Assembly (NCBI GenBank): GCA_963693365.1 | Contig: CAVNZM010000003.1 | Span: 10,522,488-10,586,487, forward strand | From: Amoebidium appalachense | Taxonomy: Eukaryota; Protista; Ichthyosporea | Direction: 5' to 3' | Length of the DNA: 64,000 nucleotides | Part shown: piece by piece, positions 14,300 through 49,192 of the stretch | How positions within the stretch are numbered: position 1 is the stretch's first letter | Layout of the letters: every line of letters begins with the position of its first letter | The notes under the pieces: model-generated | The model's input: only the letters and a program-made list of their open reading frames with translations | Database searches by the model: none | What the model was told of the DNA's origin: nothing | Translations under genes and position numbers: made by a program

Positions 14300-14311
14300 T
14301 GCACAAACACG

Positions 14312-14350
<39 letters not shown>

Positions 14351-14773: not shown

Positions 14774-14812
<39 letters not shown>

Positions 14813-22620: not shown

Positions 22621-22790
22621 CCTTTTTTTGGGGGGGGGGAGGGGGGGAAGGGGGGGAGAGGGGAGGGGGGATGGAGGGGGAGGGGGGGGGGGGGGGAGGG
22701 GGGGGCGTGAGGAGCGAGGGGAGGGTGGGGAGGGGGGGGGGGGGGAGGGAAGGAGGGGGGGATGGGGGGGGAGAGCATAGAGCCGAATAG

Positions 22791-24363: not shown

Positions 24364-24934
24364 GGGGGGGGGGGGGGGAGGGGGGGGGGAGGGGGGGGGG
24401 GGGGGGGGGGAGGAGGGGAGGGGGGGGAGGGGGGGAGGGGGGGGGGAGATTAGCCCGGTTGTTTTGCAAGGTGAGAAGCACAATTTCTCAGGTCACGTGC
24501 ACTGGGATGTTGGAACATATTTCTAGTATTTATTTTGCAATTGGTGGCAACCACACAGTGACTGTTTCGTGTTTATTCCGGTGAGGTGATATACAGTGAG
24601 GTGATAGAATACCGTAACAGTCTGCCATACCCGGTAGACAGAAGATTTCAGGGGACCCTCGTGCTCGGTACTGTATGCACTCAGCTAAATTGTCGTTGCG
24701 CTTTGTGTTATTTGCAGTGCATTCATTCGATGTAATTAATCATGGGTTTCAAGTAGATCGGTGTTATCGCTGTACATATATCAGCAGCTGAATTCATGAA
24801 AGAGTGTGCGGCAATACGCGGCGTGCTCGCAACGGTATGCAGCAGGGCAGAAATCCATTCGCAGATTTGGAGTGTGCACACGTGTGGATGCACATGTGTG
24901 TAGCTGTACATACTGGCACATGTACGAGGGCCGT

Positions 24935-25012
24935 TTAGCGGTCACCAATCTGCTTCTTGGCTGCGCGCACCACCACACGAACAAGGCGGATGATCAGGCG
25001 AACGGGGACCAT
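24935..25012 (-). CDS. Cationic amphipathic micropeptide, copy 1: MVPVRLIIRLVRVVVRAAKKQIGDR
   Basis: First 20 codons encode the same residues as 32038-32127 with 5 synonymous differences. TATATAAAC upstream (25075-25083) and AATAAA downstream (24572-24577). Confidence 0.7.
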   Translation of the reverse strand: MVPVRLIIRLVRVVVRAAKKQIGDR

Positions 25013-25713
25013 CTTCGCGTTTTGTTTGAGGTGATTGTCAAAGTTCAACTGAAGGCAAACTGAGGTCGCTGCCTGTTTATATACGTGCTACTTCAAAAGC
25101 ACGCCTGGTGCCATAAGTTGAACATTGTCGATTTCCATTGGCGTAAAAGTTGTTTATTGAAACTTTGTTGAAAGTTTGTTCCCAGATCTAGATGACAGAT
25201 GGCCGTTACACTACGATCACAAATGTCACTAATTAGAAGTCTTTTTTCACGATCTTTTTTTTTTTTTTTTTAAAAAAAAAACGTTCAATAGCTTATATAC
25301 GGTTCTACTGACGTTTTCGAAGCACATATATTGTTGCAGTAAGAGTAACAGTACTAAGTGCACGCGCCGGCGGACGACTCACCGAGGGGGCGACCGACAT
25401 TCCGGGATAAAGAAAGCCAATTGTTTCATTATTGTACAACATTCCATTGCAAGATCACGATCACACATTCCAACCCAGATCTGCCGCGACCCGAACACTG
25501 TGGTGACATCTAGATATGCAAAGTCAGACAGACAAGCGCAGAAGACGTCGCTTGTGCTTTCCACCGGATCCGAAGCACTTCGAGTTTCGATATTATCACA
25601 GTGTAGCCTGCACATTAGAATACATATCTACACAGCTCCACCAACATACGCCCTATTGGCTACATACCATAACTTGCTAACTTGCTGGCAATTTATCAGC
25701 CAAACTTTGAAAA

Positions 25714-26198
25714 ATGGTGGTACCTGTTCGCCTGATTGTTCGCGCTTGCAAGCGTGTCGTCCACATGGCCAAAGGTGCCGCAGGCAGTGCGTCCTCACAA
25801 GGAAAAGCCACACCTTCCCAAAAAAGTTGTATTATTAACCATCAAGAAAATAGGCAGGCATTCAGCTCTACGGATGCACCCACAAATGGTGAAGATTTTG
25901 TTTTTGTAGAGTCCAACACATCGACACCGAGAGGACTTGAAGCCACAACGAAGCCACCACAGTCAGAACACACTGCCTCGCGTATCTCCAGTAGTGAAAG
26001 TGAACCAGCGAGAGACGATTATGTTCCTAAACCAAGAGTTCCCGTTTACCGGAAAAGAACTCGTGCTCAGTTCGCAGCTAGAGCGCAAATTCATGAAGAG
26101 AGCGACCAGGGTAAGGTTGAAACGTGCGAAATGCCCTTGTTGTTGATTCTAGTTTGGTAGCGGAGCTTCAGAAAATGAAATGTACCTATGTGAATTAG
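25714..26198 (+). CDS. Divergent partner of the micropeptide (about 160 aa, disordered, basic YRKRTR patch), 1-nt frameshift near the C-terminus
   Basis: ORF MVVPVRLIVRACKRVVHMAKG... Comparison with 49193-49741 shows synonymous changes in the frame DSSLVAELQKMKCTYVN*, implying a 1-nt deletion near 26140. Confidence 0.55.
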
Positions 26199-27296
26199 AG
26201 AATCAGTAGCAAAACATTCTCTATGATCATGAAATGGCAGCTGCAGACCTATCTGTGCCGCAGCGAACTTATCACTTGTACATATGCATAATAATATTTG
26301 TGTCCTTCCTCCTGCACACGATCATACGATAATATTCCTCAAATGCAATGTGCCTACCTTAGCATAATTTCAACGTTCTGTTCCCTCCCCATGCCGCTAC
26401 ATTGGTTGGGTCCCGGTCCCCCGATCATTAATACTACAAAAACACACAAGACATCTTTGTACAATTTCTGTGAAATGTATTATCAATAAATAAAGCAAAA
26501 CTTTTAATTCTAAACCAGCACATTGTCAACATTTCTCTAGTGCGAATAGTTGCCCCCCCCCCCCCCCCCCCCCCTCTTAACCTCGTGCCCTACGCTGTCA
26601 CGAGCGATATCCTTCTCTGCCCACTTTGGCCTCCCCCCCCCCCCTCTCCACCCTCCCCCCATCCTCTCCCCCTCTTACCGCACCCCTACCCTTCAAGTCC
26701 ACCCCACTCCCGACCTCCCCACCCCTTCAGCTCAAGCCCCAGCCTCCTTCAGCTGACGTGGATGTTAATATCATTCAGATGGAAATGTGATGCCGGTGTT
26801 GCAAAAGGGCCGATATGATCTGAGTGTAGACGGAAGGATGCTGCTGGGAGGGAAACACTGGCTGACTACTGGGTATAGATAGGAACTTGAGAGATGTTTA
26901 TGGTGATGAACTCATGAGTGGCCACTGCATGTAGGTCATGGATTGATGGCGGTTGACGTGTTGGCACGTGGGTAGAGGCGGAAGGGGGATCTCTCTAGAG
27001 GGGGGAGGGGAGGGGGAGGGGGGGGGGGGGAGGGAGGTAGGGGGAGGGGGGGGGGGAGGGCTTGTTTTTGATTACACTCGATTATTAAACGATCCTTTGG
27101 TAAGAGTGTCCATATTGTGTATTGTAATGTGTTCATAACTACTGAAACGCTCACATACCAAGCATGACCATGAATCCATGCATATGCATATACATGATAT
27201 GCAACATTTTAATAATGACGAAGTTAGTGGGAACCTTCATACGGAGGCAGGCCGGCACCCACCCAATGTGACTCGTCTCCCACAACCACACATGCC

Positions 27297-29753: not shown

Positions 29754-29798
<45 letters not shown>

Positions 29799-30841: not shown

Positions 30842-30866
30842 CTCCCCCCCCCCCCCACACACACAA

Positions 30867-30905: not shown

Positions 30906-32037
30906 AAAAACAGACAACATGCGCTCGCACACACACAACACACACACGCGCGCGCGTGCGTGCGTCTACATAAAAACACACGCACACACGCACACACACA
31001 CGTACACACAACATCCCCCCCCCCCTCCCCCTCCCCCCCGCCCCCCGCCCGCCCGCCCGCCGCCACCCCCACGCACATGCGCACCCACACGCACCGTGCG
31101 GCAAAAACAAACACATTTCCTTCTTCCTGCTTCGGCACCAACACACTTCGTCACGTGCGCATACAGGCACACTGTTAATTTGTGCTCTCCACCTGTCGTC
31201 CATACCACGGCCACAAAGCATGCAATGTTGTACAGAAACTTTATGCAGAGTTGCATAAAGGGGCCGGGTACAAATCCTGTCCCTTTCGAAATCCCATCGA
31301 TTTGTACCCGGCCCCTAGTAGAACGGAAGGTTGGAATCCGGTGAAATAAAGCGTGGGTAGGATTCGTTCGAACCCTAAACAAACACGGCGAAAGCTTTTT
31401 TCCTCTTTTCCCTTTCTGCGTTCTTCTCTCTTCATTTTCTTTTTTTAGTCCCCCCTTCGTTTCTGGTGGGTAAGTGCGGAGATTGGAGTGTGAGTGGAGA
31501 AGGAGGAGGAGAAGGTAGGGGGGAGGGGGGGGGGGGGGGGGGATTTTTGTTTTTATTTTTTTTGTGGGGAGGGGGGGGGGGGGGGGGAAGGGGGGGGGGG
31601 GGGAGGGGGTGATGCACGGGGAGAAGGACAACTTCTCGGGTCATTTAAACAGGCCTAGGTGGCAACCACACAGTGGTTTATTCATCTTAATATGTTTATT
31701 TCATACCATGTTTGAGCATTAAAGTGTGACAATGTACAATGGTAGGCAGCCAGAGAAGGTTTGAGAAGACATTCGATCTGTGTTATCATTATCAGTGCAT
31801 TTTCGGTGTGCGCTTAGTTAGTGCACCCTCGTTCAACTTGTTTATCATCATGTGTGCTTTGTTGCGATTTTGGCAAAGTTCGGGGCCCGTAGTGAAAGCA
31901 CAGACACTTGGCAACACTATTCATTCGATGAACAATATATGCGAAAGGTCGTCGTTGCCTCTGCAAGTCAACCCCATGGCTTTAGTAGCCTCGGAATGAG
32001 GTTTGAATTGCTTCACTCTCGTCATATGCCGGAGCAG

Positions 32038-32127
32038 CTAGTTCAGCCCTTCACCGTCAGCTATTCGCTTCTTGGCAGCGCGCACCACCACACGGACAAG
32101 GCGGATGATAAGGCGGACGGGCACCAT
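32038..32127 (-). CDS. Cationic amphipathic micropeptide, copy 2: MVPVRLIIRLVRVVVRAAKKRIADGEGLN
   Basis: Codon-level conservation with 24935-25012. TATATAAAC at about 32216-32224 and AATAAA at 31677-31682 followed by the conserved CACTGTGTGGTTGCCACC. Confidence 0.7.
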   Translation of the reverse strand: MVPVRLIIRLVRVVVRAAKKRIADGEGLN

Positions 32128-32981
32128 TTTTGCGTTTTTGTTTGTTTGTTTCCCTGCTCAAGCTGGACGTCGATAAGGTTCAGCCTTGATCTGAGCCATC
32201 TTCATCGGTCGGCTGGTTTATATATGTTTGACTTCCGATTATATCTCATCTCATTGGTCAACTTTGCTCGATATCGGTTGGCTAAACAGTTTGCTCCCAG
32301 ATCTAGATGACACCAGTCTTACAGTCTTACCGTGACTGTCGATTTAAATTCTTCTCAGGCTATGAGCTTTGAGCTTCATTTACATAGGAATATGATCAAA
32401 TTGAATATTTGTTTTGACCTTACGGTTTATAGCAAATTATACGTAGTGTCTTACGGCCCTAAAGCGTGGCTTTGACGTTTTCGATGTTGCCTGAAGAAAT
32501 CTCTCATGATCCATACCGATGAGGCGGACGACATTCCGGAGATAAAGAGAACCAATCGTAATACAGACGAAAGCAGGGTTGGGCTGGGGTTCGCCAGCTT
32601 TGCCGGAGGCAAGACTTCCCCTCACTCCCGTCGTGGCTCCCCGAGGTGACCGAGACAAAGAGAAGCAGAAATGCAAGTCAGTGAGGAATTTTATTATTGA
32701 ATTTAGCCCTAATAAATAACATCAATATCTGATCAGAAAACCCCCAAAACCCCCGGATAAACCCCCTAAGCCCCAGAACACCGTGTGTGTGTGCACACGT
32801 GTGTGTGTGTGTGTATGTGTGTGTGTTTGTGTGTGTATGATAGGCTATTGAAGGAACAGCACTTCCAGCACACAATGGTCGAAAGAACCCCTTCATCTAT
32901 CCAAACCTACCCTACTTTTTATTTTGTGATTGTGTTTTTTAAATAATGTGTGTTGGGTGTGTGTGTAGAAGCCTGTAGCTG

Positions 32982-33923
32982 CTAATCGTGCGTAATCATG
33001 TGTGGCCTACGGGCCAAGGATTTTGCCTGGGCTGACAGATGAGCGGGCATTGAAATTGCCAGGAGCATGGCCTTGTTCGTGTCAATGTAGTGGTTGAAAG
33101 GCGTCGTGAAAGTACGCCACCGACCATTGATACGAATTTGCTCATAGTCCTCCCCTCTGAGTGCTGCTGTGGAGGCTGCCCCGTGCCGTGTGCTGTACAA
33201 TGAGAAGTCGCTATCCAGGCCCACAGCCGTCAGACTCTGTTGCATACGAGTTGCGACCAGCGATGGTGTGTACCCAGGATGAAACAGAGGGTCGGATGGG
33301 CGGGAGCCATGGGGAAATGCACCCACTGCCATGAGCTTCTGCAGCAAATGCAAGCACACTGGATCACGGATCACCACCATCTGATGATTGTCCGTTTTGG
33401 ACCGTGGAAGAAGCAACACTGCACTGCCCGCTGGAACATTGATTTCAATCAACCGTGGATCATTCGGAGGAATGAAGTCTGCCACCGTGCGCCGCGAGAG
33501 CTCCCCCGGCCGGGTGTAGGTTGCGAATGACATACACAGATAGAGTGCTACGTGCGGCATCTTGTATTCCCACAGAGCCGACACTGCCAAAATCATGTAG
33601 TCGTAGGGGAGTGGTCTGTGGTGATTGGTCGGGTTAGCATGGTCCCACCCCCTTAGGACCCTGGCCGACAGGACCAAGGAGTCCTTGCACTGGGGATAGA
33701 AATGGTGGATGGCTGACAGCACCGTCTTGCAGTGGGCGAGCCCGCTGCGGGTCTCCCCCAACTCTTCGTACATGTCAGCTGCATAGCTCGCAAGCATGTT
33801 AATATCCACCTGCTCTACAGACTGGAAGGTGCTCACCCCATCTTCCACACACCACGCTACGAATTTGTTCAAGGCGTTGTCGTATTTCGCCACTGTGGGA
33901 GCCGTGACATTGAGATTGAGCAT
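32982..33923 (-). CDS. Tyrosine recombinase of the DIRS-order element
   Basis: Catalytic-like motifs RPGE (R), SKTD (K), YSTRHG (HxxR with H>Y), GRW and HY (Y). Confidence 0.88.
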   Translation of the reverse strand: MLNLNVTAPTVAKYDNALNKFVAWCVEDGVSTFQSVEQVDINMLASYAADMYEELGETRSGLAHCKTVLSAIHHFYPQCKDSLVLSARVLRGWDHANPTNHHRPLPYDYMILAVSALWEYKMPHVALYLCMSFATYTRPGELSRRTVADFIPPNDPRLIEINVPAGSAVLLLPRSKTDNHQMVVIRDPVCLHLLQKLMAVGAFPHGSRPSDPLFHPGYTPSLVATRMQQSLTAVGLDSDFSLYSTRHGAASTAALRGEDYEQIRINGRWRTFTTPFNHYIDTNKAMLLAISMPAHLSAQAKSLARRPHMITHD

Positions 33924-36900
33924 ATGCGTGATTTTTGCAGAGGGGACTCGACGTCACGTGACGGCATGTCTGCTGGATTGTGGGCAGAAGGGACCCACAC
34001 CCACGCCGGTCGAAGTGCGGCTGCACACACAAGTGCTGCCACTCGCCGGCACAGATGATTTAGCCGTCGTGAACTCGATCTACCCTTGGCCACCGCAAAC
34101 AATAAAGATGTGTTGTCGATGAGATGAGCTACTCTGGTGCCGTGATTTTGTGGTGCTCGCGTGAAACGTCGTAGTGATAATAGCAGCGCATGCCCCTCGA
34201 GGATGGTGATGTGATCTTCGTGCCGCCACGGAGTAGATATCGGATGGTGCCACTGCAGACCGTCAACTACTTTCAGAAAAGAGTCGTCGGTCGTGGGGTG
34301 GTTCGTGCTGTCGTTACATTCATCGGCCGAAAGGGCGTTAATCACGAGCTCACCGGTGTCGTCCACAGGCCCCAAGAAGGAATAACCGGGTCTGGACACC
34401 GACTGTGCTAATGCCGTCAACGATTGCTCAGCCGTAACGGACGCAATAGAAACACCTGCTCCTTTGGTGGACGCATCTGATGCCAACAGAAGAGAGGCGG
34501 GAGCAGCCGTCAAATCACACACAATGAGAGGTGCCAAATCCACCAACAGGGCCAACTCCCCCTTGACTGCAGAGGGGATTGGGCATGCCGTTAGTGGACA
34601 TTGGCCGGCTGACAACGCAAACTGATAACTCGCCTCTAACACAGAAAATAAAGCTCTATTCAAAAGCAACAACCATGCCCAGCCCCCAAGCAAACGAGAT
34701 AACGCCCGTGGAGCCACCTCCCGCATGAACAGAACCGCCTTTGTGTCGGCTAGTAGCCGCGCCAACCGTGATGCATCCGGTCGAATAACACCGTCCCGTC
34801 CAATAGCCAACCCGAGTGCTACGGTCTCCGGGTGGTCTCGTGACGCCGTGACCGTTTTGGACGGTTTTATTTCGAATCCGTGTGTCTCTCCAGCGCGCCC
34901 GGCTGCCGTCATCTCGGAATTTACAGTAGATTCAAGAAGTTCCTCCAACCCAACCCCCACCCAATCATCCACGTAGATCAAATGTGCCGTATCCGTTGGT
35001 CGGTAATGGAATGTGCCGGTGAAGAATTCATCGGATTGGATGCATCGTTGATACGTAAAGGCGGGTGCGTGATGTGCTGGTGAGAACGTTGGGCGACAAA
35101 CGGTGCCCATTTCCAGCCCATCGGCATAGACAACACCCGCGGATACACCAACCTATCGACACCCGGCAGTCCCACTGCTGAAGACGAAACCGGCGGAAGC
35201 CCTTGGTACCAAGACAGCCAGTCTGGCACCCGAAAACGGTGGTAGAAATTCGAAAAATCGTACTTGGCCACCACCACCGCTGCGTCCTTCGGAACAATGA
35301 TACTACACAAATCTGCCGGACTGGGAAAATTCGGATTGGGCGGGTCTATCATGACTGCATTCATGGGGCGAGCATCCATGATAAGACGGTCTTCCTTCTC
35401 ATCTTTCTCCACCGCAAATAAACCATTGATAATCTTTGGGGGCTCCGAAATTTCTGAAAAAGCAACCATACCACAAACATACATACGCTTAGCCAATATA
35501 GGCCACTCCGCAGGCGACGCAAATGCATGGACAGGACGCCCGGGCAAAGGGTGGGCTCCTTCGGCACCCTCAGTGGTGCTCTCAGTTGCCAACACGCCCC
35601 CAAGCCCGCAAACTCCGTGACCGTTCGGCTGTCCGACCGCGTCACCCGTGCGATTTGACGCCACCACCAACACGTTTGGCTTCTCCATCAACTCCTTGAG
35701 GTCAGGTGGAAGGACCTCCAGGAGCGGAACTGTTGCCCCAAACCCCTCAGGAGGAAGGGCAATACGCTCAGCAACTATGGGGGTGAAGGCTTTTTAGTGA
35801 TTGAAATATGGGAAAGATTCAGACACAGCCGCTAAGGGGACATTGCTGATCCTGCGGCGCATATCCGCGCAAAAAACGAAAATTCGCTGAATGGATTGTG
35901 TCTGTGCCGGTGAGGGTGCATGAGAAAAGTGCGTGGATTTAGGAAAAGGCGTGGGAAAAAAGTGTGTGCTGGTAGGAGGGGAAAATGTTGAAAAGTGTGT
36001 GTGATTCTGGGAAGAGGTGTCGTGCATGTTGTGCCAAACATCGTTCCTAGGAGATTCTACCGAGCCAGGTGGCCCATTATACAACGTGTTGATTACAGCT
36101 ATGGTTCTATTAACCAACTTTAACACAGCAAATCTCTTGTTGAACCTCCCACGTCTTCTTGGAGAGGCCAACCTAACACCATCAAGCAACAGCGGGACTA
36201 CAAAAAGGGGAAGTGGAAGTAAATCATTAGACACATGGGGAAACAAGCCTGGCTCAGCCGCGCCCGTGACGCCCTCACCAGGGGTACTAACATGGGGGGC
36301 TACGGGCTCACCGGTGTACCACATCAGCAAACTTCCCGGAAGTATTGCCAACGTATTTTTTGCTATTGGCGCTATTGGCGATATTGGCAATAGAACCCCT
36401 TGCCGCCAATAGGAACGCCATATTGCAATAATATTGCTTTGGTATTGTCAATGGTAATACAGTACCAATACCCTCTATTGTCGATATCCCGCTGATATGA
36501 ATATATTATCCAGTATATGTTACATCAATATCGCCAATACATTAGAGTGCCATTACATTGCCATTGCATTACTATTGCGCTAGCATTATAGACGTATTGC
36601 CAATATCAATTATACCCGGGCGATATTACAATAACAACCAAATAATATCAAAAATACAGATAATGATATGGATAATACTGTATTTTCGCATTGTAGTTGC
36701 ACTACGAACGCATTATTAATGTATTGCCAATATGTAATTCATAGAAATACAAAGATTTAAATATCAAGAAACATATAAACAATGTATTGCCAACATATGA
36801 TCCAACTATAATCAATATATAAATGCGGTATCGCCGATAGGTTGCTTATATATCGTGAGTATATTGATGACATAAACAGAGGTATGATTAATACACTCCC

Positions 36901-37390
36901 AACACATTACAAATAAGAAATATGTAAGTATGTTCCATATCAAGCATATATTGCCAACATACGAATGATACCACCACCATAAAGATATAAGTGTTGATAA
37001 TGCATTACATATATATTATAAATATCACACTATATTATCCAAATACATTGCCAATAAATTGATAATGGGAACGAATGCATGCAAAGTACAGTATAAGTGC
37101 GCTTATAATATGAAAGGCATATCGGAGTAACGTCTTATATCTAAGAATAATACATATGACGAACATTGCCAATGTATTAATAATAGCTTTATTGATACCT
37201 CAATCACATGCTCAATATATTGGCAATATGCACACGGTACGGTAAGCACAGCCCCATGATCATTATCAATGAATTGCCAATGTATTGCACATGTTGACAT
37301 CCATACGTGTTCCGTATGGTCACTTTATTAACTTCGGTTGGATAGTGGCATCGAGCACACAAGTAAACAACACAACTAATATACCACCCC

Positions 37391-37888
37391 AAGAGCAACA
37401 CAGAAACGAAACACGGAAACAACAGCAGCCATAGGACAAAGAGCCCCAGACCCACAGGGTCTTGCCTCCATACTTTATTTACCTTAACAGGACAAAGAGC
37501 CGGTACCCACCTATGGGTGCTAAACATGCACATGATCATTCATGTGCTATAAGAGCAACACAGAAACGAAACACGGAAACAACAGCAGCCATAGGACAAA
37601 GAGCCCCAGACCCACAGGGTCTTGCTTCCATACTTTATTTACCTTAACAGGACAAAGAGCCGGTACCCACCTATGGGTGCTAAACATGCACATGATCATT
37701 CATGTGCTATAAGAGCAACACAGAAACGAAACACGGAAACAACAGCAGCCATAGGACAAAGAGCCCCAGACCCACAGGGTCTTGCCTCCATACTTTATTT
37801 ACCTTAACAGGACAAAGAGCCGGTACCCACCTATGAAACGAAAAACGGAAACAACAGCAGCCATAGGACAAAGAGCCGGTACCCACCT
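37391..37888 (+). repeat. 160-bp tandem repeat, about 3 copies
   Basis: Unit AAGAGCAACACAGAAACG... starts at 37391, 37551 and 37711, with a partial fourth copy. Confidence 0.92.
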
Positions 37889-38911
37889 CTAGATGATAAC
37901 GTAGCCTTATAGCTGCTGATGACTTCATGGGCCAACCTTGCCAAAACCTGTAAAGGAACTCGAGCTAAGAATTAGCTCATCCTACTTGCGAGAAGTTGGG
38001 GGGAGGGGGGGGGGGGGGGGGGGGGGGGACTGAGGGGGCTGACTGAGAGTGGCAAAAAAAGAGTCGACAGAACCAACCTCAAACATAGTAAGGACGGAAA
38101 CCCGGACCAGAACTTATGAAGTCTAGAGAAGCAGAAAATAGCTTGAACGATCGGTGGAGGGGACGATAGCTATAGTGCTAACAGCAAAGTAGTGCCCACA
38201 GTCGCTGGTTCATGAACGTGAAAGGCAACGTGCATCTGCAGCCAGCAGACACACGCACACGCACGCACGCACGCACACACACATACACACACACACACAC
38301 AGACACAGACACAGACATAATCACAGGACGGACACAGACCAGACAGACAAACGCCATATGCACAAAAGCAGGCAACACAAAACTAACCTTCAAGAAGAAG
38401 CTGCAGCATGCAGCATGGTCCAAAACAATCAGCGCGGTGGCTGCGCGATCTGCGGAGGGGATCTGTGACCAGGCGCTGCGGGAAGGGAACTGCGACCAGG
38501 CGACCTGCGGGAAGGGACTTGCGACCAGGCGACCTGCGGGAAAGGACCTGCGGACCTGCGGGAAGGGGGAAGAGAAATGGAGAAAACAACGTGCGTACAG
38601 GCTTAAATGGAGAAAAAATTGCAAACCGGATTGGGATTTAGCCAATCACTATTCGCCGCGCCTGATTAGGAAAAAGATAAAAATAGATTTCGGCTCGCGC
38701 GCGCGCGTGCATCAGCCTGGGTGCCCTTAGCGCTACCCTTAGTGCCCTTAGTCACAACTATCAGACTATAGTTACGTGTCCTCCACTTCTTTGTTCTTGA
38801 CCATTTTTTCGGCATGAAAGGGTTTCTGTTACTTCTTGCTGTCCTTCTTAGCGTGCTTGCTTGTCTTTTTTTCAACATGGGTGTCACTGGCGCTTTCGAC
38901 TTCTTTGAAAT

Positions 38912-38954
<43 letters not shown>

Positions 38955-39626
38955 GCGCGCGCACGCACACACACTCACACATGCACACTGCACACACACA
39001 CACACACACACACACAGGCGCGCACACACAGGCACGCACACACACAGGCGCACACCTACACAACACACACAGCACATGCACACACAAGCGCACACACGCA
39101 CACACCCTGTTATCCCTGATCATGATGCCCCCTCCCCCCTCCCTCTTCCCCCCCGCGCACCCCCCCCCCCCCCCCCCCCCCCACCCACCCCACCCACCCA
39201 CCTACAAAGACGAATACATTGTACATGTATTGCATACACAAATATACTCGCACATATACATACACACATTCACTTTAATCTTTCAGGCTACATGTGCAAT
39301 ATACATTAATTATGCACAGTCGATAGAATTCGTTGTGAAACCCCCCCCCCCCCCCCCCCCTCCCCCCTCCTCGTTCCCCCCATATGCAATGGGGATAATA
39401 TTGTTTCCCGCTATTAATTAAAAAATCACCGTTCTAACTTCCTAAGACCGAACCACTTGTAACACCGACAGTTTTGGTTGTGTGGAACCCCCCCCCCCCC
39501 CCCCCCCCCCCCCCAACCCACCCACCACCTTACCAATATTGAGGTGTACACTGCCCCCACATCCCCAACTGTGTGCTGAATATCCCGTGCTAGGAAACCA
39601 ATAACGTGAAAGTAACACATGCCGCA

Positions 39627-42050
39627 TGTGGGTAGTTATTGAAAAAACCAATAATGTCTAGGTAACATACTATGTACATATACTATGCTACAAAGGGGGT
39701 TCTATACGAGCTACAACGTTGTGTTTTTTTCGTGTGACCCTCGTACTCCAGGGGCACATTCACCATCCCCCCCATAAACTTTGTGGTAAAGTTCTCGTGC
39801 TAGAAGCTGTTCTGTGGGTAGTTATTGAAAAAACGAATAATGTCTAGGTAACACATGTACATATGCTATGCTACAAGGGGGGTTCTATTCGAGCTACAAT
39901 GTTGTGTTTTTTTTGTGTGACCCTCGTACTCCAGGGGCACATTCACCATCCCCCCCATAAACTTTGTGGCAAATCTCTCGTGCTAGAGGCTGTTCTGTGG
40001 GTAGTTATTGAAAAACCAATAATGTCTAGGTAACGTATGTACATATACTATGCTACAAGGGGGGTTCTATACGAGCTACAACGTTGTGTTTTTTTCGTGT
40101 GACCCTTGTACTCCAGGGGTACATTCACCATCCCCCCCATAAACTTTGTGGTAAATGTCTCGTGCTAGAAGCTGTTCTGTGGGTAGTTATTGAAAAACCA
40201 ATAATGTCTAGGTAACACATGAACATATACTATGCTACAAGGGGGTTCTATTCGAGCTACAATGTTGTGTTTTTTTCGTGTGACCCTCGTACTCCAGGGG
40301 CACATTATCCATCCCCCCCATAAACTTTGTGGTAAATTTCTCGTGCTAGAAGCTGTTCTGTGGGTAGTTATTGAAAAACAAATAATGTCTAGGTAACATA
40401 CTATGTACATATACTATGCTACAAGGGGGGTTCTATACGAGCTACAACGTTGTGTTTTTTTCGTGTGACCCTCGTACTCCAGGGGCACATTCACCATCCC
40501 CCCCATAAACTTTTTGGTAAATCTCTCGTGCTAGAGGCTGTTCTGTGGGTAGTTATTGAAAAACCAATAATGTCTAGGTAACATATGTACATATACTATG
40601 CTACAAGGGGGGTTCTATACGAGCTACAACGTTGTGTTTTTTTCGTGTGACCCTCGTACTCCAGGGGCACATTCACCATCCCCCCCATAAACTGTGTGGT
40701 AAATGTCTCGTGCTAGAAGCTGTTCTGTGGGTAGTTATCGAAAAAACCAATAATGTGTAAGTAACACATGTGCATATATTATGCTACAGGGGGGGTTCTA
40801 TTCGAGCTACAACGTTGTGTTTTTTTTGTGTGACCCTCGTACTCTAGGGGCACATTCACCATCCCCCCCATAAACTGTGTGGTAAATGTCTCGTGCTCGA
40901 AGCTGTTCTGTGGGTAGTTATTGAAAAAACCAATAATGTCTAGGTAACACATGTACATATACTATGCTACAAGGGGGGTTCGATACGAGCTACAACATTG
41001 TGGTTTTTTCGTGTGCCCCTCGTACTCCAGGGGCACATTCACCATCCCCCCCCATAAACGTTTTGGTATATTTCTCGTGCTAGAGGCTGTTCTGTGGGTA
41101 GTTATTGAAAAACCCAAAAATGTCTAGGTAACACATGGACATATACTATGCTACAAAGGGGGTTCTATACGAGCTACAACGTTGTGTTTTTTTCGTGTGA
41201 CCCTCGTACTCCAAGGGCACATTCACCATCCCCCCCATAAACTGTGTGGTAAATGTCTCGTGCTAGAAGCTGTTCTGTGGGTAGTTATCGAAAAAACCAA
41301 TAATGTGTAAGTAACACATGTACATATATTATCAGCTACAAGGGGGGTTCTATTCGAGCTACAACGTTGTGTTTTTTTTGTGTGACCCTCGTACTCCAGG
41401 GGCACATTCACCATCCCCCCCATAAACTGTGTGGTAAATGTCTCGTGCTAGAAGCTGTTCTGTGGGTAGTTATTGAAAAAACCAATAATGTCTAGGTAAC
41501 ACATATACATATATTATGCTACAAGGGGGGTTCTATTCGAGCTACAACGTTGTGTTTTTTTCGTGTGACCCTCGTACTCCAGGGGCACATTCACTATCCC
41601 CCCCATAAACTTTGTGGTAAATTTCTCGTGCGAGAGGCTGTTCTGTGGGTAGTTATTGAAAAAACCAATAATGTGTAAGTAACACATGTACAAATATTAT
41701 GCTACAAGGGGGGTTCTATTCGAGCTACAACGTTGTGTTTTTTTCGTGTGACCCTCGTACTCCAGGGGCACATTCACCATCCCCCCCATAAACTGTGTGG
41801 TAAATGTCTCGTGCTAGAAGCTGTTCTGTGGGTAGTTATTGAAAAAACCAATAATGTGTAAGTAACACATGTACATATACTATGCTACAAGGGGGGTTCT
41901 ATTCGAGCTACAACGTTGTGTTTTTTTCGTGTGGCCCTCGTACTCCAAGGGCACATTCACCATCTCCCCTTATAATTTGTGGTGAATTTATCGTGCTAGA
42001 AGCTACTCTGTGGGTAGTTAGTGAAAAAACCCGATGCTTATAAGTAACGC
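39627..42050 (+). repeat. About 183-bp tandem satellite, about 13 copies
   Basis: Unit TGTGGGTAGTTATTGAAAAAACCAATAATG...GCTAGAAGCTGTTC recurs about every 181-187 bp. Confidence 0.95.
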
Positions 42051-42928
42051 ATGCACAAATTGTCATCATAGCATTACACTACCATAGTAGTTGGTCGACA
42101 ATAACGATATATTGGGAATGTGGACACCATATTGTAAACCAAAAAATAATAACACCATAATATACTACACATACCTAACAATGTATTGTGAATGAATAAA
42201 ATACTTGCTTACGTGCTGGTAACATACGAGAAACAAGGATTCTCTCGCTCTTTTTTTCTTTCTTTTTTGTTTGTTTTTGTGTTTGTGTGTGTGTGTGTGC
42301 GTGTGTGTGTGTGTGTGTTTAAGGGGGGGGGGGGGGGGGGGGGGGGGGGGGTCGTTTTGCAGATATATCGACTAGAGTCCCTCATCAGGGGACACATTCA
42401 CAGTACTTTATTAAGATCGGCCTTCAAGGCCAAAAAAGCTCGATCTCGAGTAAGATTAGATAGCATTTTATGAGGCCGGCCAGGCCTTAAATACAAAAAG
42501 GAGAAAAAACAACACACAGCTAAACATAGATCTAATATTAGCTAAATCAATCGACACACTGGTACATTGCCTGGAGTAAACCGCATCTATCCCACTGGTA
42601 CATGTACTGTCATCATCCAACCAACACCCGTGTAGTACCTTTGTCAAGCGTTCCTACGATACTACATAAGAGAAGAGAGGGTTATATGTGTACGTGTGTA
42701 CGTGTGTACGTGTGTGTGTATGTGTGTATGTGTGAGGGAGGGAGGGAGGGAGGGTTGGGAGGGAGGGAGGGAGGGAGGGGGGAGGGAGGGGGGAGGGAGG
42801 GAGAGAAAGAGAGAAAGAGAGAGAGTGTGCATGTCTGTATGTGTGTGTGTGTGTGTGTGTGTTTGCGTGTGTGTGTGAGTGCATATGTGAGTGTGCATGT
42901 GCATGTGCATGTGCATGTGCATGTGTGT

Positions 42929-42971
<43 letters not shown>

Positions 42972-43445
42972 GGGGGGGAGGGAGGGAGGGAGGGAGGGAG
43001 GGAGGGAGGGAGGGAGGGAGGGAGGGAGGGACGGAGGGAGGGAGGGAGGGATGGTTGGGAGGGAGGGAGGGAGGGGGGAGGGAGGGAGGGAGGGAGGGAG
43101 AGAAAGAGAGAGAGACTGTGTGTGTGTGTGCATATCTGTATGTGTGTGTGTATGTGCGTGTTTGCGTGTGTGCGTGTGTGCATGTGTGAGTGTACATGTG
43201 CATGTGTGTGTGTCTGTGTGTGCATATGTGCATGTGTGTGTGTGTGTGTGTGTATGCGTGTCTGTGTCTGATGTGTGGATGTCTGTGTATGTTGTGTGTG
43301 TGTGTATGTCTGTGTGTGTGTATGTGCTCAGTTGAAAGGGAAGGGGGGGAGAGGGGGGATGCACCGTGTGTGTGCATGTGTGCACGTGTGTGTGTGTGTG
43401 CTCTGTGGAGAGGGAAGGGGAGGGGGGAAATGCACCGTGTGTGTG

Positions 43446-43505
<60 letters not shown>

Positions 43506-43648
43506 TTGTGTGTTTGTCTGTGTGTGCATGTCTGTGTGCGTCGTGTGTGGTGTGTGTGTGTATGTGCATGTCTGTGCATGTGTGCATGTGCTCGGTGGAG
43601 AGGGAAGGGCAAGGGGGGGATTCGTGTCCGTGCATGTGTGCATGTGTG

Positions 43649-43695
<47 letters not shown>

Positions 43696-43930
43696 ATGTA
43701 TGTGTGTGTGTATGTGCTCAGTTGAGAGGGAAGGGGGGGGGGGGGGATGCACCGTGTGTGTGCATGTGTGCACGTGTGTGTGTGTGTGTGCTCTGTGGAG
43801 AGGGAAGGGGAGGGGGAGGAAATGCACCGTGTGTGTGCATATGTGTGTGTGTCTCTCTGTATGTGTGTGTGTGTGTGTTGTGTGTTTGTGTGTGTGAGCA
43901 TGTCTGTGTACGTCGTGTGTGTGTGGTGTG

Positions 43931-43993
<63 letters not shown>

Positions 43994-44134
43994 GGTGTGT
44001 GTGTGTGTCCCGGTGTGCATGTGCGTGCGTGTGTGTGAGTGCATGTTTTTGGAGTGCATGTTTTTGCATTGTGTGCGAGCATGTGGATGCCTTGGTGAGA
44101 ACAAGATTGGACGGTGTCGAATGCTGTGTGTGTT

Positions 44135-44170
<36 letters not shown>

Positions 44171-44576
44171 CTGTGTGCGTGTGTGTTTTTTTGGGGGGAG
44201 AGGGGTAGTAGGAGGACAAGAGGGGGGGGGGGGGGGGGGTGGTAAAGAGTACGAGAGAAAGGGGTAGAATTTCAGACATGTGGAGGCTTGAGCAAAAGCA
44301 GGTTAAGTCCATAATGGGTAAAACCGGCGCTGGAACGAGAGGGGAAGGGGGGGGGGGGGGGGGGAGGGGGGGGGGGGGGGGGTGATGATGTGTGCATTCG
44401 AGGGTGGCAGCCAAAGAAGCAAAGCATCGCAAAGGACATTGGAATAGAGGGACACAGGACCAAAACAGGATCAATGGGAGAAGAGGGAAAAAAATTAATA
44501 GTTATCGGGGAGGGATAAGAAGAAATACTGCAAGTAATCGAGGCGAACAGGTATGGGGGGAACCGGGCAGGAAGAA

Positions 44577-44607
<31 letters not shown>

Positions 44608-44919
44608 GAAGGACGAGAGGGTGGGTCACAAGACAGAGATTATTCAGTACAGACTAAGGCTTCAGTCGGGAAGGGAGGGGGGGGGGGAGGGAGGGGGGAG
44701 GGGAGAGGAGGGGGTGGGGGGGGGGTCATAAAAGGACAAGGAAAGGAGGTGACTTCAGCAACCAGTCGAGGCTTGAACAAGAGTAGGTGAAGTTTGTAAC
44801 GGTTAGCAAAACTGGTGCTAGAACGAGAGAGGAAACACACAGTGAAACGTAAAAGAGGGTAGAGAGTTGAGAGGAAGAAGGGGAAGTTTGTGTGTGTGCG
44901 TGTATGCATGGGTGGGTGG

Positions 44920-45032
<113 letters not shown>

Positions 45033-45313
45033 TGGTTACACTGGCAGCGTCCGTGGTGATGGGTTTGGGGGGGAAGGGGGTGAGGGGAGTGAGGGATGTT
45101 TCGAAGAAAGAAAAGTATTGCAAGTAACAAGGGGGCATAAAGACATAGGACTAAAACAAAATGGAGGGGGAGGAGGGGGGGGATGCTGTAAACTTTGATG
45201 CGTCTCGGGGACGTGTGTAGGGACTGCGAGTTCTCTTAGATTTGCATTTCAGAATTTTTACTCTATTCCTCCAGGTTTTTTTTATATTTTTTTTAGGGTT
45301 GGGTTGGGTTGGG

Positions 45314-45357
<44 letters not shown>

Positions 45358-46798
45358 GTCATTACTTTCCTGTATTATCCTTTATGCTACTTCAAGTTTT
45401 ATACCCTACCGCTTACACAGGATGTAGGCTGGTGAAAGGTTTAATGGTAGGACGTTCGGTGACGTTTGTACCACGGACCACGGGAACATCTTCCCCAGGA
45501 ACAGTATTCAAAACAAAGAACTTTTATATTTTGAGGTGCTAAAAACGTGAGGACCACTTGTTATGGCCGTTGCCCTTCTCAATCTTGGTACGGAAATGCA
45601 CCCATATTATACTGCAAATGTATTGTATTTGACGTGTGTATATCGTACAGGTACTGGTAGTATATTGATAGTACCTCCTACGTAATGATTTGTTCGCATT
45701 CGAACATACTGGCAGTATATACTGAGACTATAACCAATATATGGTGTCCTTAGCTGTGTCCGTATTGGTGACAGTATTATAGATGTATTCGTGACATTGC
45801 CAAGACCACTTGTGCCTTAGATATTCGCAATAGGATAAAAGTTTTCTTGCTATATCATGTTTATGTCCTACTAATATGGATGTGATATGGGTAGGATATG
45901 ATCTACATAATGTCAGTATATGTCCACCCTAATACCACGGTATTAGCAATGTACTGCGCATACAAGGACTACACTCCGAACATGTTTGTTGAACATGTGT
46001 TGGCAATACATTCACAATATTGCAACTACATAGGTAAAGTGACCTGTTCTTTCATCCCCAATATTGTACCAATATATTGGCAATAAAATACACGCCCCAT
46101 ATTTTCGGTTGCTTTTACCTATTGATAATAGGTGCATAATAGTCTTGATATTGTGACGGATACATTGGCAAATTACATTTGGACCGTATTGAGACCCTAT
46201 TATAAGCATATCACAACCCTATAACCAATAGCGACGTTATGTTTGTATCGGCCATATGGGACATATGTGTTGGGTATATTGCCAATAACCCAAAATGGTC
46301 AGGAATAATACATTCATAATATATTGGCAATAGTCTTGCCACGTTGGACAATACCATAATTTGACACAAAATTATCCTACATTTTATATATTCATAACTT
46401 ATTGACAATACTCCGCAAGCAATAGTATAATACCGAATAAATACATTGACAATATCGAAATTGTATTGTTAATAGGCACACGTACACGCGTTTTGAGATA
46501 TTGCCAGTACATTACTCATACGGTATATAGTTATTGGTGGTAGACCCGGCATGGTATGACAATAATATCAAAATATGTTGCCGATATTACGTCAATATTA
46601 CAGTTCTATTACACTTCTATAGCGTCTCTACCACAGAAAATCTCTACTCGCAATACATTGGCAATGGATAATTGATATTACTTCAGTATTAATCTGGTAT
46701 TTTTACGATATTGGCAATAGATAATAGCCTCACAATATTGGCAATACCGCCGGGAAGTTTGCTGATGCACTTCCGAGAGCCCACCCCCGACACACCAC

Positions 46799-48076
46799 TC
46801 ATCGATCCCTGACGGGGTTAGGGCCCTCGCCCTTCCCCATCTTTCCCTCCTTCTCCTTTCCCTTTTTCCCCTTCTCGATCTGCGCAAACAGCTTAACCGT
46901 CGTAGCCTCACGCGCCAACAGCGCGTTTGCACGGACCAGCGTGGCGCTCGATGTGCTCTTGCCTACCGAGGGGCAGTAGCTGAGGCTGTAGCCGGGCACG
47001 TTCACATAGGCGTCCAAATCCATGACCCGGCGGAGGAGGCGCTCCGTTGCATCAAGGAAGAGGAACTTGGGCCCACACTGTTTGATGCCCACATCGATTG
47101 CATCAAGGATGACAGAAGCCTCATACCACGCAAATGCTTTCTGGGACCCTGTGGCCCTTACCTTCGCAAACGTGCCAACCGCAAATGTGGTGACCAAGTC
47201 GCGCCCGGTAGAGTAGTCGCCGTAGGAGATATTGTCGTTGATGAAGTTGTGGCCCAGATAACCTTCCTCCGAGAACGAACCTGCAATTCTTCCCAAATCC
47301 GCCGGTTTCACTGCGAATTGCAAAGTTTCCTGCACTGGCTCTGGGGGCACCACACGAGCCGTCTTGGCAATCTTAACCGTTTTGCTGTCTTGGAAGTACA
47401 CCCCTGCCGCCGCCATCCATGAATTGAAAGGGTCCGTTATCCACTCCTCTGGAATAGACTCACTCAACTGCTGCTTAGCTGGAGCGGGCTTAGGGCGAAG
47501 ACGAAGGGACTCAACCGTGGCTCTGCCCTGCTTGGCACCGTCGTTTTGCGAGTCCTCGGCCAAGAAGCCCCCCAAAAACGCCTGCTGGTGCCCCCACTCA
47601 CCCCTGCCTGCCGTGCCCGTGTCGTCTCCACTCTCTTTAGGCTGCTTGGTTGTGCCGGGAATATCTTGACTGGGCTGGTAGGCATGCACAAACCGATAGG
47701 GCGATGGTTGCTGGTTGGTGACGACAACCTTCTGAGCGATATAAGCCAACAGCTCCCAACCCTCGTCTCTCTGCCCCTCCAAACTGCCGAGGTCAAATTT
47801 ACACAGCTCGAGCACGTGGCACAGATAGTCCACCTGCTCCTTGGTGGGAGGATCGGACACGTCTCCCTCCTGGGCAACTACCCTGTCCAGCAACGCTGCT
47901 AGCAGCCTACGAAAGACCAACCACCGAGAGGAGGATGGGCTGCGAATATACGCCACGCCCCGCTCAATCACTATCACCACTGCTGTCGACCACGAGGCCG
48001 TGTTCACCTGGCTGTCAAGAAACCCCTCTGCTTGCCTCTCCAGAATGCGACTTTCCTCTGCGTTTCCGGCTGCCAT
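46799..48076 (-). CDS. gag-like ORF1 of the YR retrotransposon
   Basis: 425-codon ORF from MAAGN, basic C-terminus, stop overlapping the pol ATG (ATGA). A near-identical partial copy lies at 55563-56362. Function inferred from position. Confidence 0.7.
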   Translation of the reverse strand: MAAGNAEESRILERQAEGFLDSQVNTASWSTAVVIVIERGVAYIRSPSSSRWLVFRRLLAALLDRVVAQEGDVSDPPTKEQVDYLCHVLELCKFDLGSLEGQRDEGWELLAYIAQKVVVTNQQPSPYRFVHAYQPSQDIPGTTKQPKESGDDTGTAGRGEWGHQQAFLGGFLAEDSQNDGAKQGRATVESLRLRPKPAPAKQQLSESIPEEWITDPFNSWMAAAGVYFQDSKTVKIAKTARVVPPEPVQETLQFAVKPADLGRIAGSFSEEGYLGHNFINDNISYGDYSTGRDLVTTFAVGTFAKVRATGSQKAFAWYEASVILDAIDVGIKQCGPKFLFLDATERLLRRVMDLDAYVNVPGYSLSYCPSVGKSTSSATLVRANALLAREATTVKLFAQIEKGKKGKEKEGKMGKGEGPNPVRDR

Positions 48077-49192
48077 GATTGCGAAAAGAAGCAAGAGAAA
48101 GCAAGAGCAAACCGTAAGGCACCAACTAATCAGACTGAGGTCTCAGCTTCTGCCCCTTTACACAAGGTGCCACCAAACCAAGAAAACACCCAAACAGCCT
48201 AATTATTACCTTATCACGTTGCTCCCTCCCCTTTTTTCTTTTCACCTACACACTAGCTCTAAAAACAAGAACTGAACGAACGACGCCCACAGCTTGTAGA
48301 GCTGGTGCGCGGCTCACTCACATTTTTGGAACAGTGGAAAAGCCACCAATCATATCACCTATCTACTGATAACTACGGATCACTTCATAACTATACCTGA
48401 TCTATATCCAATCACTAAAGATACATACGACTGAGCTTAACATTCTACCCGTTAGGGCCAATCAGCTTGCACCGCTATGTAGCCGTTACCGCCGACTGAC
48501 CGAACACGTGTCATCTCTCACCGCTGCCTCCTCCCGCTCGAGAACAACAAACCGTATCGCCCTTTGGCCAATCGTAACGGACAATTTCTTAATCGTGACG
48601 GGTGGGTTCTTGGGGAGCTGCAAGCCCCGCCTAAAACGTCCCCCCAGTCGCAAAACTCACAATACGTGTTTTTACAAATTGAGTACCGCAAGATTACAGG
48701 CCCTGAAAACTGATCGGGGCTCGATATTGCACATGAGAAGCGCTGTAGATATGTTCTTGGGGGGGAATGTGCTGTTCTTGAACAGAAATATTGAAAAAAA
48801 TAGGGAAACTTACATATTCAAGCGTTTCTAATGCTACACACCTGATACGAAAGCTGTTACGACGGTACCCTGACCTTATTCGTATCGGGGTCTCTCGTTA
48901 ATCACAATTGCGACGATTTTTTTTCGTAATCCCTACCCTGGACGAAAGACACATTCAATGACGGAAGATGACGACCAAACATTCCAACGGAGATCAAGCG
49001 TGGCGTATATAACTCAACCGCTTTGTGTGATCAGTCAGAACTCAGCTTTTGCCACCGGAAGCATTGCGAATTTTGAAGGCGTAAAAATTATAGAAGTCCA
49101 AAAAAATCAACATAGTCGCCACTTTATATACCTTTCTTCACATCATATCCGGATCCCTATCCGGATCCGGTTCTCTTCAAAAGCTTTCCAAA

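What the first reader, a model, noticed from the sequence alone, without database searches (positions are those of the whole stretch)
24543..26198. Hidden divergent two-gene module: conserved cationic amphipathic micropeptide plus a partner sharing its N-terminal motif
Seen: a minus-strand 25-codon ORF (24935-25012) and its paralog (32038-32127) encode the identical 20-mer MVPVRLIIRLVRVVVRAAKK with 5 synonymous and 0 non-synonymous differences, while the flanks are strongly diverged. Both have an upstream TATATAAAC and a downstream AATAAA followed by a conserved GT-rich element, so each looks like a complete transcription unit. About 700 bp away, head-to-head, a longer ORF starts with the related MVVPVRLIVRACKRVVHMAKG. 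Arg/Lys at 5, 9, 12, 16, 19 and 20 give an amphipathic cationic helix like membrane-active antimicrobial peptides or mitochondrial presequences. Inference: an undescribed peptide/partner pair such as toxin-antidote, effector-decoy or antimicrobial cassette. The peptide is below the ORF-track cutoff.
Basis: partly seen in the sequence, partly recalled or inferred. Interest (0 to 1): 0.85.

Follow-up and report, generated by a model that had tools for sequence, protein, structure and literature searches.

The report
Duplicated micropeptide and paralog gene module
A protist-type genome carries two copies of a small head-to-head gene pair: a tiny reading frame whose first 20 amino acids are identical in both copies, predicted to form a positively charged membrane-binding helix, and a longer, less conserved relative that starts with a similar helix; the peptide is likely a real gene, but nothing shows that the two act as toxin and antidote.

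Summary
Both short ORFs exist, with 5 synonymous and 0 amino-acid changes in 20 codons (P=0.0025), matching TATA-initiator spacing (33 and 32 nt), poly(A) signals and a strongly amphipathic predicted helix.

(1) The second peptide also has a partner, at 49193. The two halves were split by a 16,367-bp insertion with an 8-bp target-site duplication and hAT-like ends; without it the start-to-start spacing is 690 nt, against 701 in copy A. The whole module was duplicated.
(2) The partner is the weak member: dN/dS about 0.46, three lesions in copy B, a frame slip near the end of copy A.
(3) Contigs of another strain or allele appear to hold an unbroken partner B and a third partner paralog.

No relative was found in any protein, viral, metagenome or prokaryote search. 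Best reading: a lineage-specific micropeptide that likely binds anionic membranes inside the cell, plus a paralog that likely uses the same helix as an address or anchor. Toxin-antidote and secreted antimicrobial readings are unsupported. Transcription is only hinted at by contigs; translation and function are untested.

The parts
24935..25012 (-). Peptide gene A, 25 aa; residues 1-20 identical to copy B
25076..25083 (-). TATA box of peptide A; initiator-like TCAG with its A at 25050 (33 nt on)
24572..24577 (-). AATAAA of peptide A (a second one at 24529-24534)
24543..24560 (.). 18-nt element identical in both copies, just past the poly(A) signal; likely a 3'-end processing or regulatory element
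24473..24495 (.). 23-nt conserved island with a short inverted repeat (20 of 23 identical to 31621-31643)
25173..25197 (.). Conserved promoter island (24 of 25 identical to 32288-32312)
25381..25424 (.). Conserved promoter island with ACATTC, GATAA and CCAAT words (82% to 32515-32559)
25451..25481 (.). Conserved promoter island shared with the partner side of module B (84% to 48965-48995)
25714..26160 (+). Long gene A, 148 aa: related N-terminal helix, S/T/P-rich tail likely disordered, KRTR motif at 114; a 1-nt frame slip near 26140 replaces the C-terminus seen in copy B
26142..26198 (+). Out-of-frame remnant of the C-terminal 18 codons homologous to long gene B, with the stop at the same place
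26485..26490 (+). AATAAA of long gene A
31621..31675 (.). Copy B of the 23-nt island (31621-31643) and the 18-nt element (31658-31675)
31677..31700 (-). Two AATAAA signals of peptide B (31677, 31695)
32038..32127 (-). Peptide gene B, 29 aa
32217..32224 (-). TATA box of peptide B; initiator-like TCAG with its A at 32192 (32 nt on)
32288..32559 (.). Promoter of module B, left part, with two islands shared with module A
32566..32573 (.). 8-bp target-site duplication, left copy
32574..48940 (.). 16,367-bp insertion splitting module B; 9 of 10 inverted terminal match starting CAGGGT (hAT-like); holds a tyrosine-recombinase-type retroelement, tandem repeats and microsatellites; no transposase identified
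48941..48948 (.). 8-bp target-site duplication, right copy
48949..49192 (.). Promoter of module B, right part
49193..49741 (+). Long gene B, broken in this assembly: a 28-nt duplication gives a stop after codon 9, a 4-nt deletion lies near 49405, and a retroelement begins at 50018 where the poly(A) region is expected

Best explanation
This is a tandemly duplicated head-to-head pair of related genes whose conserved unit is a 20-residue basic stretch predicted to form an amphipathic helix; the 25-29 aa peptide is likely an abundant intracellular product that likely binds negatively charged membranes (mitochondria being the best guess), and the long paralog likely uses its version of the helix as an N-terminal address or anchor for a tail predicted to be disordered. 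Shown: the ORFs, their purifying selection, the conserved promoter and 3' islands, the duplication and the later split by an insertion. Inferred: one gene arose from the other by an inverted duplication, both are driven from the shared 700-nt promoter, and the peptide has its own target and does not depend on the partner, because it is the more constrained and more codon-biased member. Untested: transcription from RNA reads, translation, localisation, membrane binding.
For: Coding: 5 synonymous, 0 non-synonymous changes, P=0.0025. GC3 is 14 of 19 and 15 of 19 codons in the two peptides against 56 of 144 in long A. TATA-initiator spacing is kept. No strong splice donor lies inside either CDS. 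Module: target-site duplication, inverted ends found only at these two places in the window, and spacing 690 vs 701; 3 of about 20,000 random window pairs showed both features. Homology of peptide and long N-terminus: 12 of 19 residues identical, 0 of 100,000 plain shuffles reach the score, it is the best non-peptide hit among 1,041 Met-started 21-mers, dN/dS 0.24-0.36. The helix is the constrained part: dN/dS 0.21 over long codons 5-37 against 0.46 over 110 aligned codons; peptide tails differ in sequence and length. Membrane chemistry: discriminant D 2.5-2.8 for the peptides and 2.1 for both long N-termini, against a threshold of 0.68 (PMC3189734, passages). No acidic residue before position 24 (peptides), 45 and 41 (long genes), and Arg exceeds Lys. 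PMC10363480 (abstract and section 19) reports that some unmodified helical antimicrobial peptides target mitochondria and that Arg improves targeting. Weak hint of transcription: a 530-nt contig of run X10 maps by arithmetic to 31662-32191, from one base after the initiator to 15 nt past the last AATAAA; contigs of X9 and X10 both stop at 25031 with no loose end where X8 goes on.
Against: No direct RNA evidence: X10 is labelled 'DNA?' and X9 'RNA?' by guess, depths are 3.7-7.4, contigs cannot show RNA ends, and an X9 contig runs to 24455, past both poly(A) signals of copy A. Targeting presequences are usually poorly conserved in sequence (PMC10652799, abstract start), yet this 20-mer is invariant, which fits a specific protein-binding surface as well. 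The D score is driven largely by charge, so any basic amphipathic helix passes. When the hydrophobic/basic pattern is preserved, 2,053 of 100,000 shuffles reach the peptide-long score, so homology is less overwhelming than the plain shuffle suggests. The KRTR/KRAR motif kept in both long genes resembles a nuclear localisation signal (recalled consensus), which fits mitochondria poorly. Synonymous divergence (0.25-0.29) is lower than flank divergence, so gene conversion may have helped keep the copies alike.
Confidence: 0.4

Rival explanations
1. MicroProtein-type regulator: the helix is a protein-binding motif, the long protein is a nuclear or cytosolic disordered regulator, and the free peptide competes for the same binding site.
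For: Small single-element paralog of a longer protein, in a shared promoter. The first eight residues are the best-conserved part between peptide and long gene. Invariance fits a specific interface. The long protein keeps a KRTR/KRAR motif. Definition of microProteins seen in abstract starts of PMC7534434 and PMC9638782.
Against: The would-be regulator is more constrained than its would-be target. The long protein has no recognised domain. Seven of 19 helix positions differ between the two.
Confidence: 0.2
2. Defence peptide: a membrane-lytic antimicrobial or antiviral helix that acts inside the cell or is released when the cell ruptures; the long gene is an incidental paralog.
For: Net charge +5 to +6, Arg/Val/Ile-rich, high moment. 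Codon bias suggests high expression. The genome is heavily invaded by mobile and virus-like DNA.
Against: No signal peptide or pro-region. No diversification between copies. No match to any family or protein.
Confidence: 0.15
3. Toxin-antidote selfish pair: the peptide poisons membranes and the long protein neutralises it through the shared helix.
For: Tight linkage, duplication as a unit and a transposon-rich setting. The two products share sequence, as Wtf poison and antidote co-assemble (10.1101/2024.08.27.609905, abstract). Long A stays open for 148 codons in this assembly and shows no gap in X8 contigs 10 and 11.
Against: [quoted passage not shown] Only two peptide-bearing contigs appear among the listed X8 rows (15 of 20 rows shown), which does not look like a selfish expansion.
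Confidence: 0.1
4. Cargo or relic of a virus or giant repeat, for example a membrane-penetrating or core peptide of a polinton-like virus, now stranded among transposons.
For: Intronless compact genes. CGC/GCG is not depleted in module A (observed/expected 1.14), like the virus-like block at 58.7-64 kb (1.09) and unlike the copia element (0.06). An ichthyosporean genome with many intron-poor viral and giant-repeat insertions is described in PMC11244446 (section 7).
Against: No hit in viral contigs, PHROGs or phage records. No viral hallmark gene next to either module. Selection continued after duplication.
Confidence: 0.08
5. Not a coding gene: a conserved non-coding or antisense element, or a gene-converted patch, that happens to contain an ORF.
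For: Only 5 changes carry the test. The shifted antisense frame is equally synonymous. Flank-to-coding divergence suggests some conversion.
Against: Third-position-only changes, ATG in an A-rich context, stop, TATA-initiator and AATAAA in both copies; protein-level homology to the long ORF with dN/dS well below 1. No Rfam match.
Confidence: 0.05

Closest known systems
Helical amphipathic antimicrobial peptides (HA-RAMPs; PMC7463930 passages). Compositionally also like the Arg/Val-rich designed peptides of the LBU/WLBU and bactenecin-derived series (recalled, no call)
   Same: About 20-30 residues, cationic, strong predicted amphipathic helix
   Different: No signal or pro-peptide, no sequence relative, invariant between paralogs, activity untested, and paired with a long paralog
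Mitochondrial targeting presequences (PMC10363480, PMC7463930, PMC10652799)
   Same: N-terminal, Arg-rich, no acidic residues, amphipathic; in the long gene followed by a Ser/Ala/Gly-rich stretch
   Different: The peptide has no cargo; the sequence is strictly conserved; no clear processing site by eye; the long protein carries an NLS-like motif
microProteins (PMC7534434, PMC9638782; abstract starts only)
   Same: A small product made of one element shared with a longer related protein
   Different: The shared element is not a known interaction domain, the long protein has no known second domain, and binding is untested
wtf poison-antidote drivers of fission yeast (10.1101/2024.08.27.609905, abstract)
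   Same: Short and long products that share sequence, in a transposon-rich setting
   Different: Two separate divergent genes; invariant peptide; low copy number seen; partner broken in one copy; no homology
hAT transposons (for the 16.4-kb insertion only; PMC4298943 Table 1 passage)
   Same: Inverted ends starting CAGGG; 8-bp target-site duplication (the 8-bp rule for hAT is established knowledge; search listing)
   Different: Terminal match is only 10 bp; no transposase was identified in the ORFs scanned; the interior is nested repeats

Membership tests
Protein-coding micropeptide gene | ORF under purifying selection at the amino-acid level | tested here: met
   5 synonymous, 0 non-synonymous changes, P=0.0025
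Protein-coding micropeptide gene | Own promoter and 3' signals, not exon 1 of a longer gene | tested here: met
   TATA-initiator and AATAAA in both copies; no strong donor in the CDS; X10 contigs run colinearly through the stop codons
Protein-coding micropeptide gene | Transcribed | tested here: inconclusive
   Contig extents fit the predicted units, but run type is a guess and contigs cannot show RNA ends
Protein-coding micropeptide gene | Translated | not testable with these tools
   Needs ribosome profiling or peptidomics
HA-RAMP antimicrobial peptide | Cationic amphipathic helix | tested here: met
   Prediction only: moment 0.86, charge +6, D 2.5
HA-RAMP antimicrobial peptide | Secretion signal or precursor (usual in eukaryotes; established knowledge) | tested here: not met
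   Longest uncharged run is 4 residues; no upstream in-frame ATG after the TATA box in copy A
HA-RAMP antimicrobial peptide | Sequence match to a known family | tested here: not met
   0 Pfam, 0 PHROGs, 0 hits among 1.84 billion representatives; sensitivity is low for 29 positions
HA-RAMP antimicrobial peptide | Kills microbes or permeabilises membranes | not testable with these tools
   Bench assay
Mitochondrial presequence | N-terminal, basic, lacks acidic residues, amphipathic | tested here: met
   First D/E at 24, 24, 45 and 41; moment at about 100 degrees
Mitochondrial presequence | Directs import and is cleaved | not testable with these tools
microProtein | Small protein related to one element of a longer protein | tested here: met
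   12 of 19 identical residues; shuffle tests
microProtein | Shared element is a protein-protein interaction domain, and the longer protein is multidomain | tested here: inconclusive
   No domain recognised in the long protein
microProtein | Inhibits the longer protein by forming a non-productive complex | not testable with these tools
   Bench assay
Toxin-antidote selfish element | Tight linkage of the two parts | tested here: met
   701 nt in A; 690 nt in B before the insertion
Toxin-antidote selfish element | Antidote kept intact wherever the toxin is intact | tested here: inconclusive
   Long B is broken beside an intact peptide B, but long A is open and could cover both
Toxin-antidote selfish element | Rapid diversification of the toxin between paralogs (as in wtf) | tested here: not met
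   20-mer invariant; contrast with the abstract
Toxin-antidote selfish element | Toxicity and rescue | not testable with these tools
   Bench assay
hAT transposon (insertion 32574-48940) | 8-bp target-site duplication and short inverted ends | tested here: met
hAT transposon (insertion 32574-48940) | hAT transposase gene | tested here: inconclusive
   5 ORFs of the insert were scanned against Pfam with no transposase hit; the other ORFs listed were inspected by eye only

The most novel reading that the evidence does not exclude
The module is a recent, natural case of one amphipathic helix existing both as a free membrane-active defence peptide and as the targeting sequence of a longer paralog, side by side on one promoter. 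That would be a living example of the proposed conversion between antimicrobial and organelle-targeting peptides, which so far rests on physico-chemical likeness and engineered fusions in the papers I saw (PMC7463930, PMC10363480). A toxin-antidote role through the shared helix is a second unexcluded form.
Probability: 0.12. Interest if true: 0.8.

Novelty: new variant of a known kind. Interest (0 to 1): 0.5.

Why it matters
Genes of 25-29 codons fall below annotation cut-offs, and this one has good evidence of being real, with no detectable relative. The pair gives a clean natural comparison: the same kind of helix alone and fused to a tail, on a shared promoter, in two aged copies, with broken and apparently unbroken partner alleles in different strains. 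That makes it cheap to test whether such a helix acts as a membrane effector, an organelle address or a competitor of its own paralog. Until one of those tests is positive it remains an orphan micropeptide of uncertain role.

Tried and rejected
Homolog searches, all empty: long ORF against the 5.8-billion set (0 of 23 candidates); 4-sequence alignment A1, near lengths (0 of 17) and longer (0 of 698); profile against 1.84 billion representatives (0 at E up to 0.001); exact look-up (0 of 8 proteins, including control ORFs of the window, so this genome seems absent from that collection); viral contigs; metagenome contigs; prokaryote genomes; phages and plasmids; Pfam, PHROGs, Rfam; solved structures gave only one designed helical repeat protein, a compositional match. 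All have low power for a 20-residue motif, and none covers eukaryotic genomes well.

Literature: three peptide words found 0 papers; a topic search listed general reviews only. Earlier findings of the scan: nothing.

No RNA holder was listed on record; this is no evidence either way. X14 gave no contig. X9 and X10 show no contig over the promoter 25032-25713, which a filter can cause, so it is not counted as evidence.

Complex prediction of two copies of the long N-terminus: no verdict (score 0.03), not used for or against. Single-sequence fold of long A: mean pLDDT 53, uninformative, not searched further. The ESM Atlas gave no answer. No whole genome was held, so the genome-wide copy number is unknown.

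Rejected: the module as a 2.1-kb transposon (only poly-G/poly-C at its ends, no other inverted ends); a structured RNA in the 3' islands (z 1.39 and -1.77 on the transcript strand); a Helitron end (no conserved terminal CTRR after the hairpin, by eye); a 42-nt intron that would restore the end of long A (it leads to a stop and its donor is not kept in copy B, by eye). PxVxL, IAP-binding and calmodulin motifs were considered from recall; none could be tested.

Full report
Setting. The window is repeat-rich eukaryotic DNA: a copia element (2789-7197), tyrosine-recombinase-type retroelements (about 33-36 kb and 50-54 kb), AP2/HNH-like repeats, microsatellites and a virus-like gene block at 58.7-64 kb with weak NUDIX and MSV199 hits. 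These features resemble the ichthyosporean genome described in PMC11244446 (passages and section 7 read), but the host is not established here. No whole genome was held.

1. The observation. Codons 2-20 differ at five third positions, all synonymous; with 17.2 synonymous and 39.8 non-synonymous sites the chance is 0.0025. Over 24 codons there are 7 synonymous and 2 non-synonymous changes, both after residue 20, and the stop codons differ, so only the 20-mer is held. Third positions are G or C in 14 of 19 and 15 of 19 codons, against 56 of 144 in the long ORF and 44% GC in the module. Both copies have TATATAAA with a TCAG word 33 and 32 nt on and two AATAAA signals. Five non-coding islands are shared in the same order, while the sequence between them is about 55% identical, near shuffled levels. 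No GTAAG, GTGAG or GTATG donor lies within either CDS. The predicted helix has a moment of 0.86 at 100 degrees (shuffle p 0.0012); the long N-terminus has 0.67 (p 0.008).

2. A second long-gene copy, 76% identical, starts at 49193. Homology of the peptide-B locus to module A stops near 32560, and homology of the long-B locus starts near 48950. The same 8-mer stands at 32566-32573 and 48941-48948. Just inside are inverted ends matching at 9 of 10 letters, and that end motif occurs only at these two places in the window. The 8-mer alone is not rare (6 times in the window), but 3 of about 20,000 random pairs of 60-nt windows showed both features (pairs closer than 500 nt were skipped). Counting one copy of the duplication, CCAAT-to-ACATTC is 24 nt against 22 in A, the next spacing 28 against 26, and ATG-to-ATG 690 against 701. 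So module B was one head-to-head unit, later split by a 16,367-bp insertion with hAT-like ends (similar CAGGG ends in PMC4298943, table passage). This shows descent as a unit. It does not show that the two genes need each other.

3. The partner is the weak member. Piecewise comparison of long A and B gives dN/dS 0.21 for codons 5-37 and 0.46 over 110 ungapped codons, with single segments from 0.15 to 2.3. Five of eight indels are multiples of three. In this assembly long B has a 28-nt duplication that stops it after nine codons, a 4-nt deletion, and a retroelement starting at 50018 where the poly(A) region should be. Long A has a 1-nt slip near 26140: the 18 codons after it match long B in the other frame, with the stop at the same place and dN/dS 0.09. 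Peptide and long N-terminus share 12 of 19 residues, with dN/dS 0.24-0.36. No plain shuffle in 100,000 reaches their score, but 2,053 of 100,000 pattern-preserving shuffles do.

4. Other runs (15 of 20 contig rows and 40 of 63 difference rows were shown). X8 differs from the window by 17 letters over 24450-25776, none in the peptide CDS; this is consistent but not significant (P 0.36). Contigs that I assign to long B by their letters and loose ends (X8 records 8 and 9, X10 record 3) align without the 28-nt and 4-nt lesions, so long B looks unbroken in that strain or allele. X8 record 11 has no gap across 26140, so the slip in long A is shared. X8 records 7 and 12 point to a third long paralog with a different continuation after 25941. 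X8 record 8 ends 29 nt inside the right end of the insertion, as expected if that end is a repeat present in that strain too. On transcription there are hints only. An X10 contig of 530 nt maps, assuming no indels, to 31662-32191, the predicted unit of peptide B, and its loose end includes the stop codon. X10 record 3 ends near 50043, close to the position homologous to the poly(A) region of long A. X9 and X10 contigs both stop at 25031. But X10 is labelled 'DNA?', X9's type is a guess, depths are low, and one X9 contig passes both poly(A) signals of copy A.

5. Relatives. None was found in any collection, and the peptide words occur in no paper of the held library. These searches are weak for 20 residues and poor in eukaryotic genomes, so 'orphan' means not found, not absent.

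6. Mechanism. The family reads as one conserved N-terminal helix with tails of 5, 9 or about 130-170 residues. With no signal peptide the products would be made in the cytosol. A basic amphipathic helix with no acidic residue and more Arg than Lys is the chemistry of both mitochondrial presequences and helical antimicrobial peptides (PMC7463930 passages; PMC10363480 abstract and section 19), and it passes the lipid-binding discriminant by a wide margin, though charge drives much of that score. I therefore commit to binding of anionic membranes inside the cell, most likely mitochondria, with the long paralog using the helix as address or anchor (0.4). The peptide is more constrained and more codon-biased than the partner, which suggests it has a target of its own. 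The invariance of the 20-mer and the NLS-like motif in the long protein keep a microProtein-type competitor open (0.2). Defence peptide (0.15), toxin-antidote (0.1), viral relic (0.08) and non-coding (0.05) follow. My confidence that the peptide gene is real is about 0.9; the uncertainty is in what it does.

7. Comparison and novelty. It works like a helical amphipathic peptide or presequence and is built like a microProtein beside its relative, but it cannot be filed in any of these: it fails the secretion and homology tests for antimicrobial families and the diversification test for wtf-type drivers (abstract), and binding is untested. Papers seen only as search listings or abstract starts: PMC7534434, PMC9638782, PMC10652799; as passages: PMC13165374. 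No supplements were opened; a gene annotation in supplements of a host-genome paper could already list these ORFs. Verdict: a probably real, lineage-specific micropeptide in a duplicated two-gene module; new variant of a known kind; interest 0.5.

Noticed in passing
window 2789-7200 and its LTRs 1802-2726, 7596-8526: The copia element is almost free of CGC/GCG (observed/expected 0.06; LTR 0.25) although it has many CG dinucleotides; other elements range from 0.32 to 1.09. This could be avoidance of, or decay from, methylation in that context.
   Followed up: partly
window 58700-64000: GC-rich, intronless virus-like gene block with weak NUDIX and MSV199 hits; looks like the edge of an endogenous large DNA virus.
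   Followed up: no
window 1-9796 and 13163-16733: Two copies of an element with an AP2/HNH-like ORF (15389-16348); the first is interrupted by the copia element.
   Followed up: no
window 46799-48231 and 55548-56366: A 425-aa ORF with no Pfam or PHROGs hit, present twice at about 99% identity in opposite orientation; the second copy is cut by a copia fragment.
   Followed up: no
window 50018-54026: Tyrosine-recombinase retroelement with split direct repeats (50018-50106 = 50587-50675; 50239-50587 = 53678-54026), Ngaro-like by recalled layout; inserted in the 3' region of long gene B.
   Followed up: partly
window 39627-42060, 37391-37835, 54628-54990: Tandem arrays with units of about 184, 160 and 181 nt; the first two lie inside the 16.4-kb insertion.
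   Followed up: no
window 22790-24034 and 29537-30842: A copia LTR-related remnant lies just left of each peptide locus, in opposite orientations, followed by T-rich and long G runs before the 23-nt island.
   Followed up: no
window 25183-25197 and 25504-25518: An inverted pair with a palindromic core in the shared promoter of module A; may be a factor-binding site used in both directions.
   Followed up: no
window 32199-32205: Two upstream ATGs between TATA and start codon in copy B only, both upstream of the predicted initiator at 32192.
   Followed up: partly
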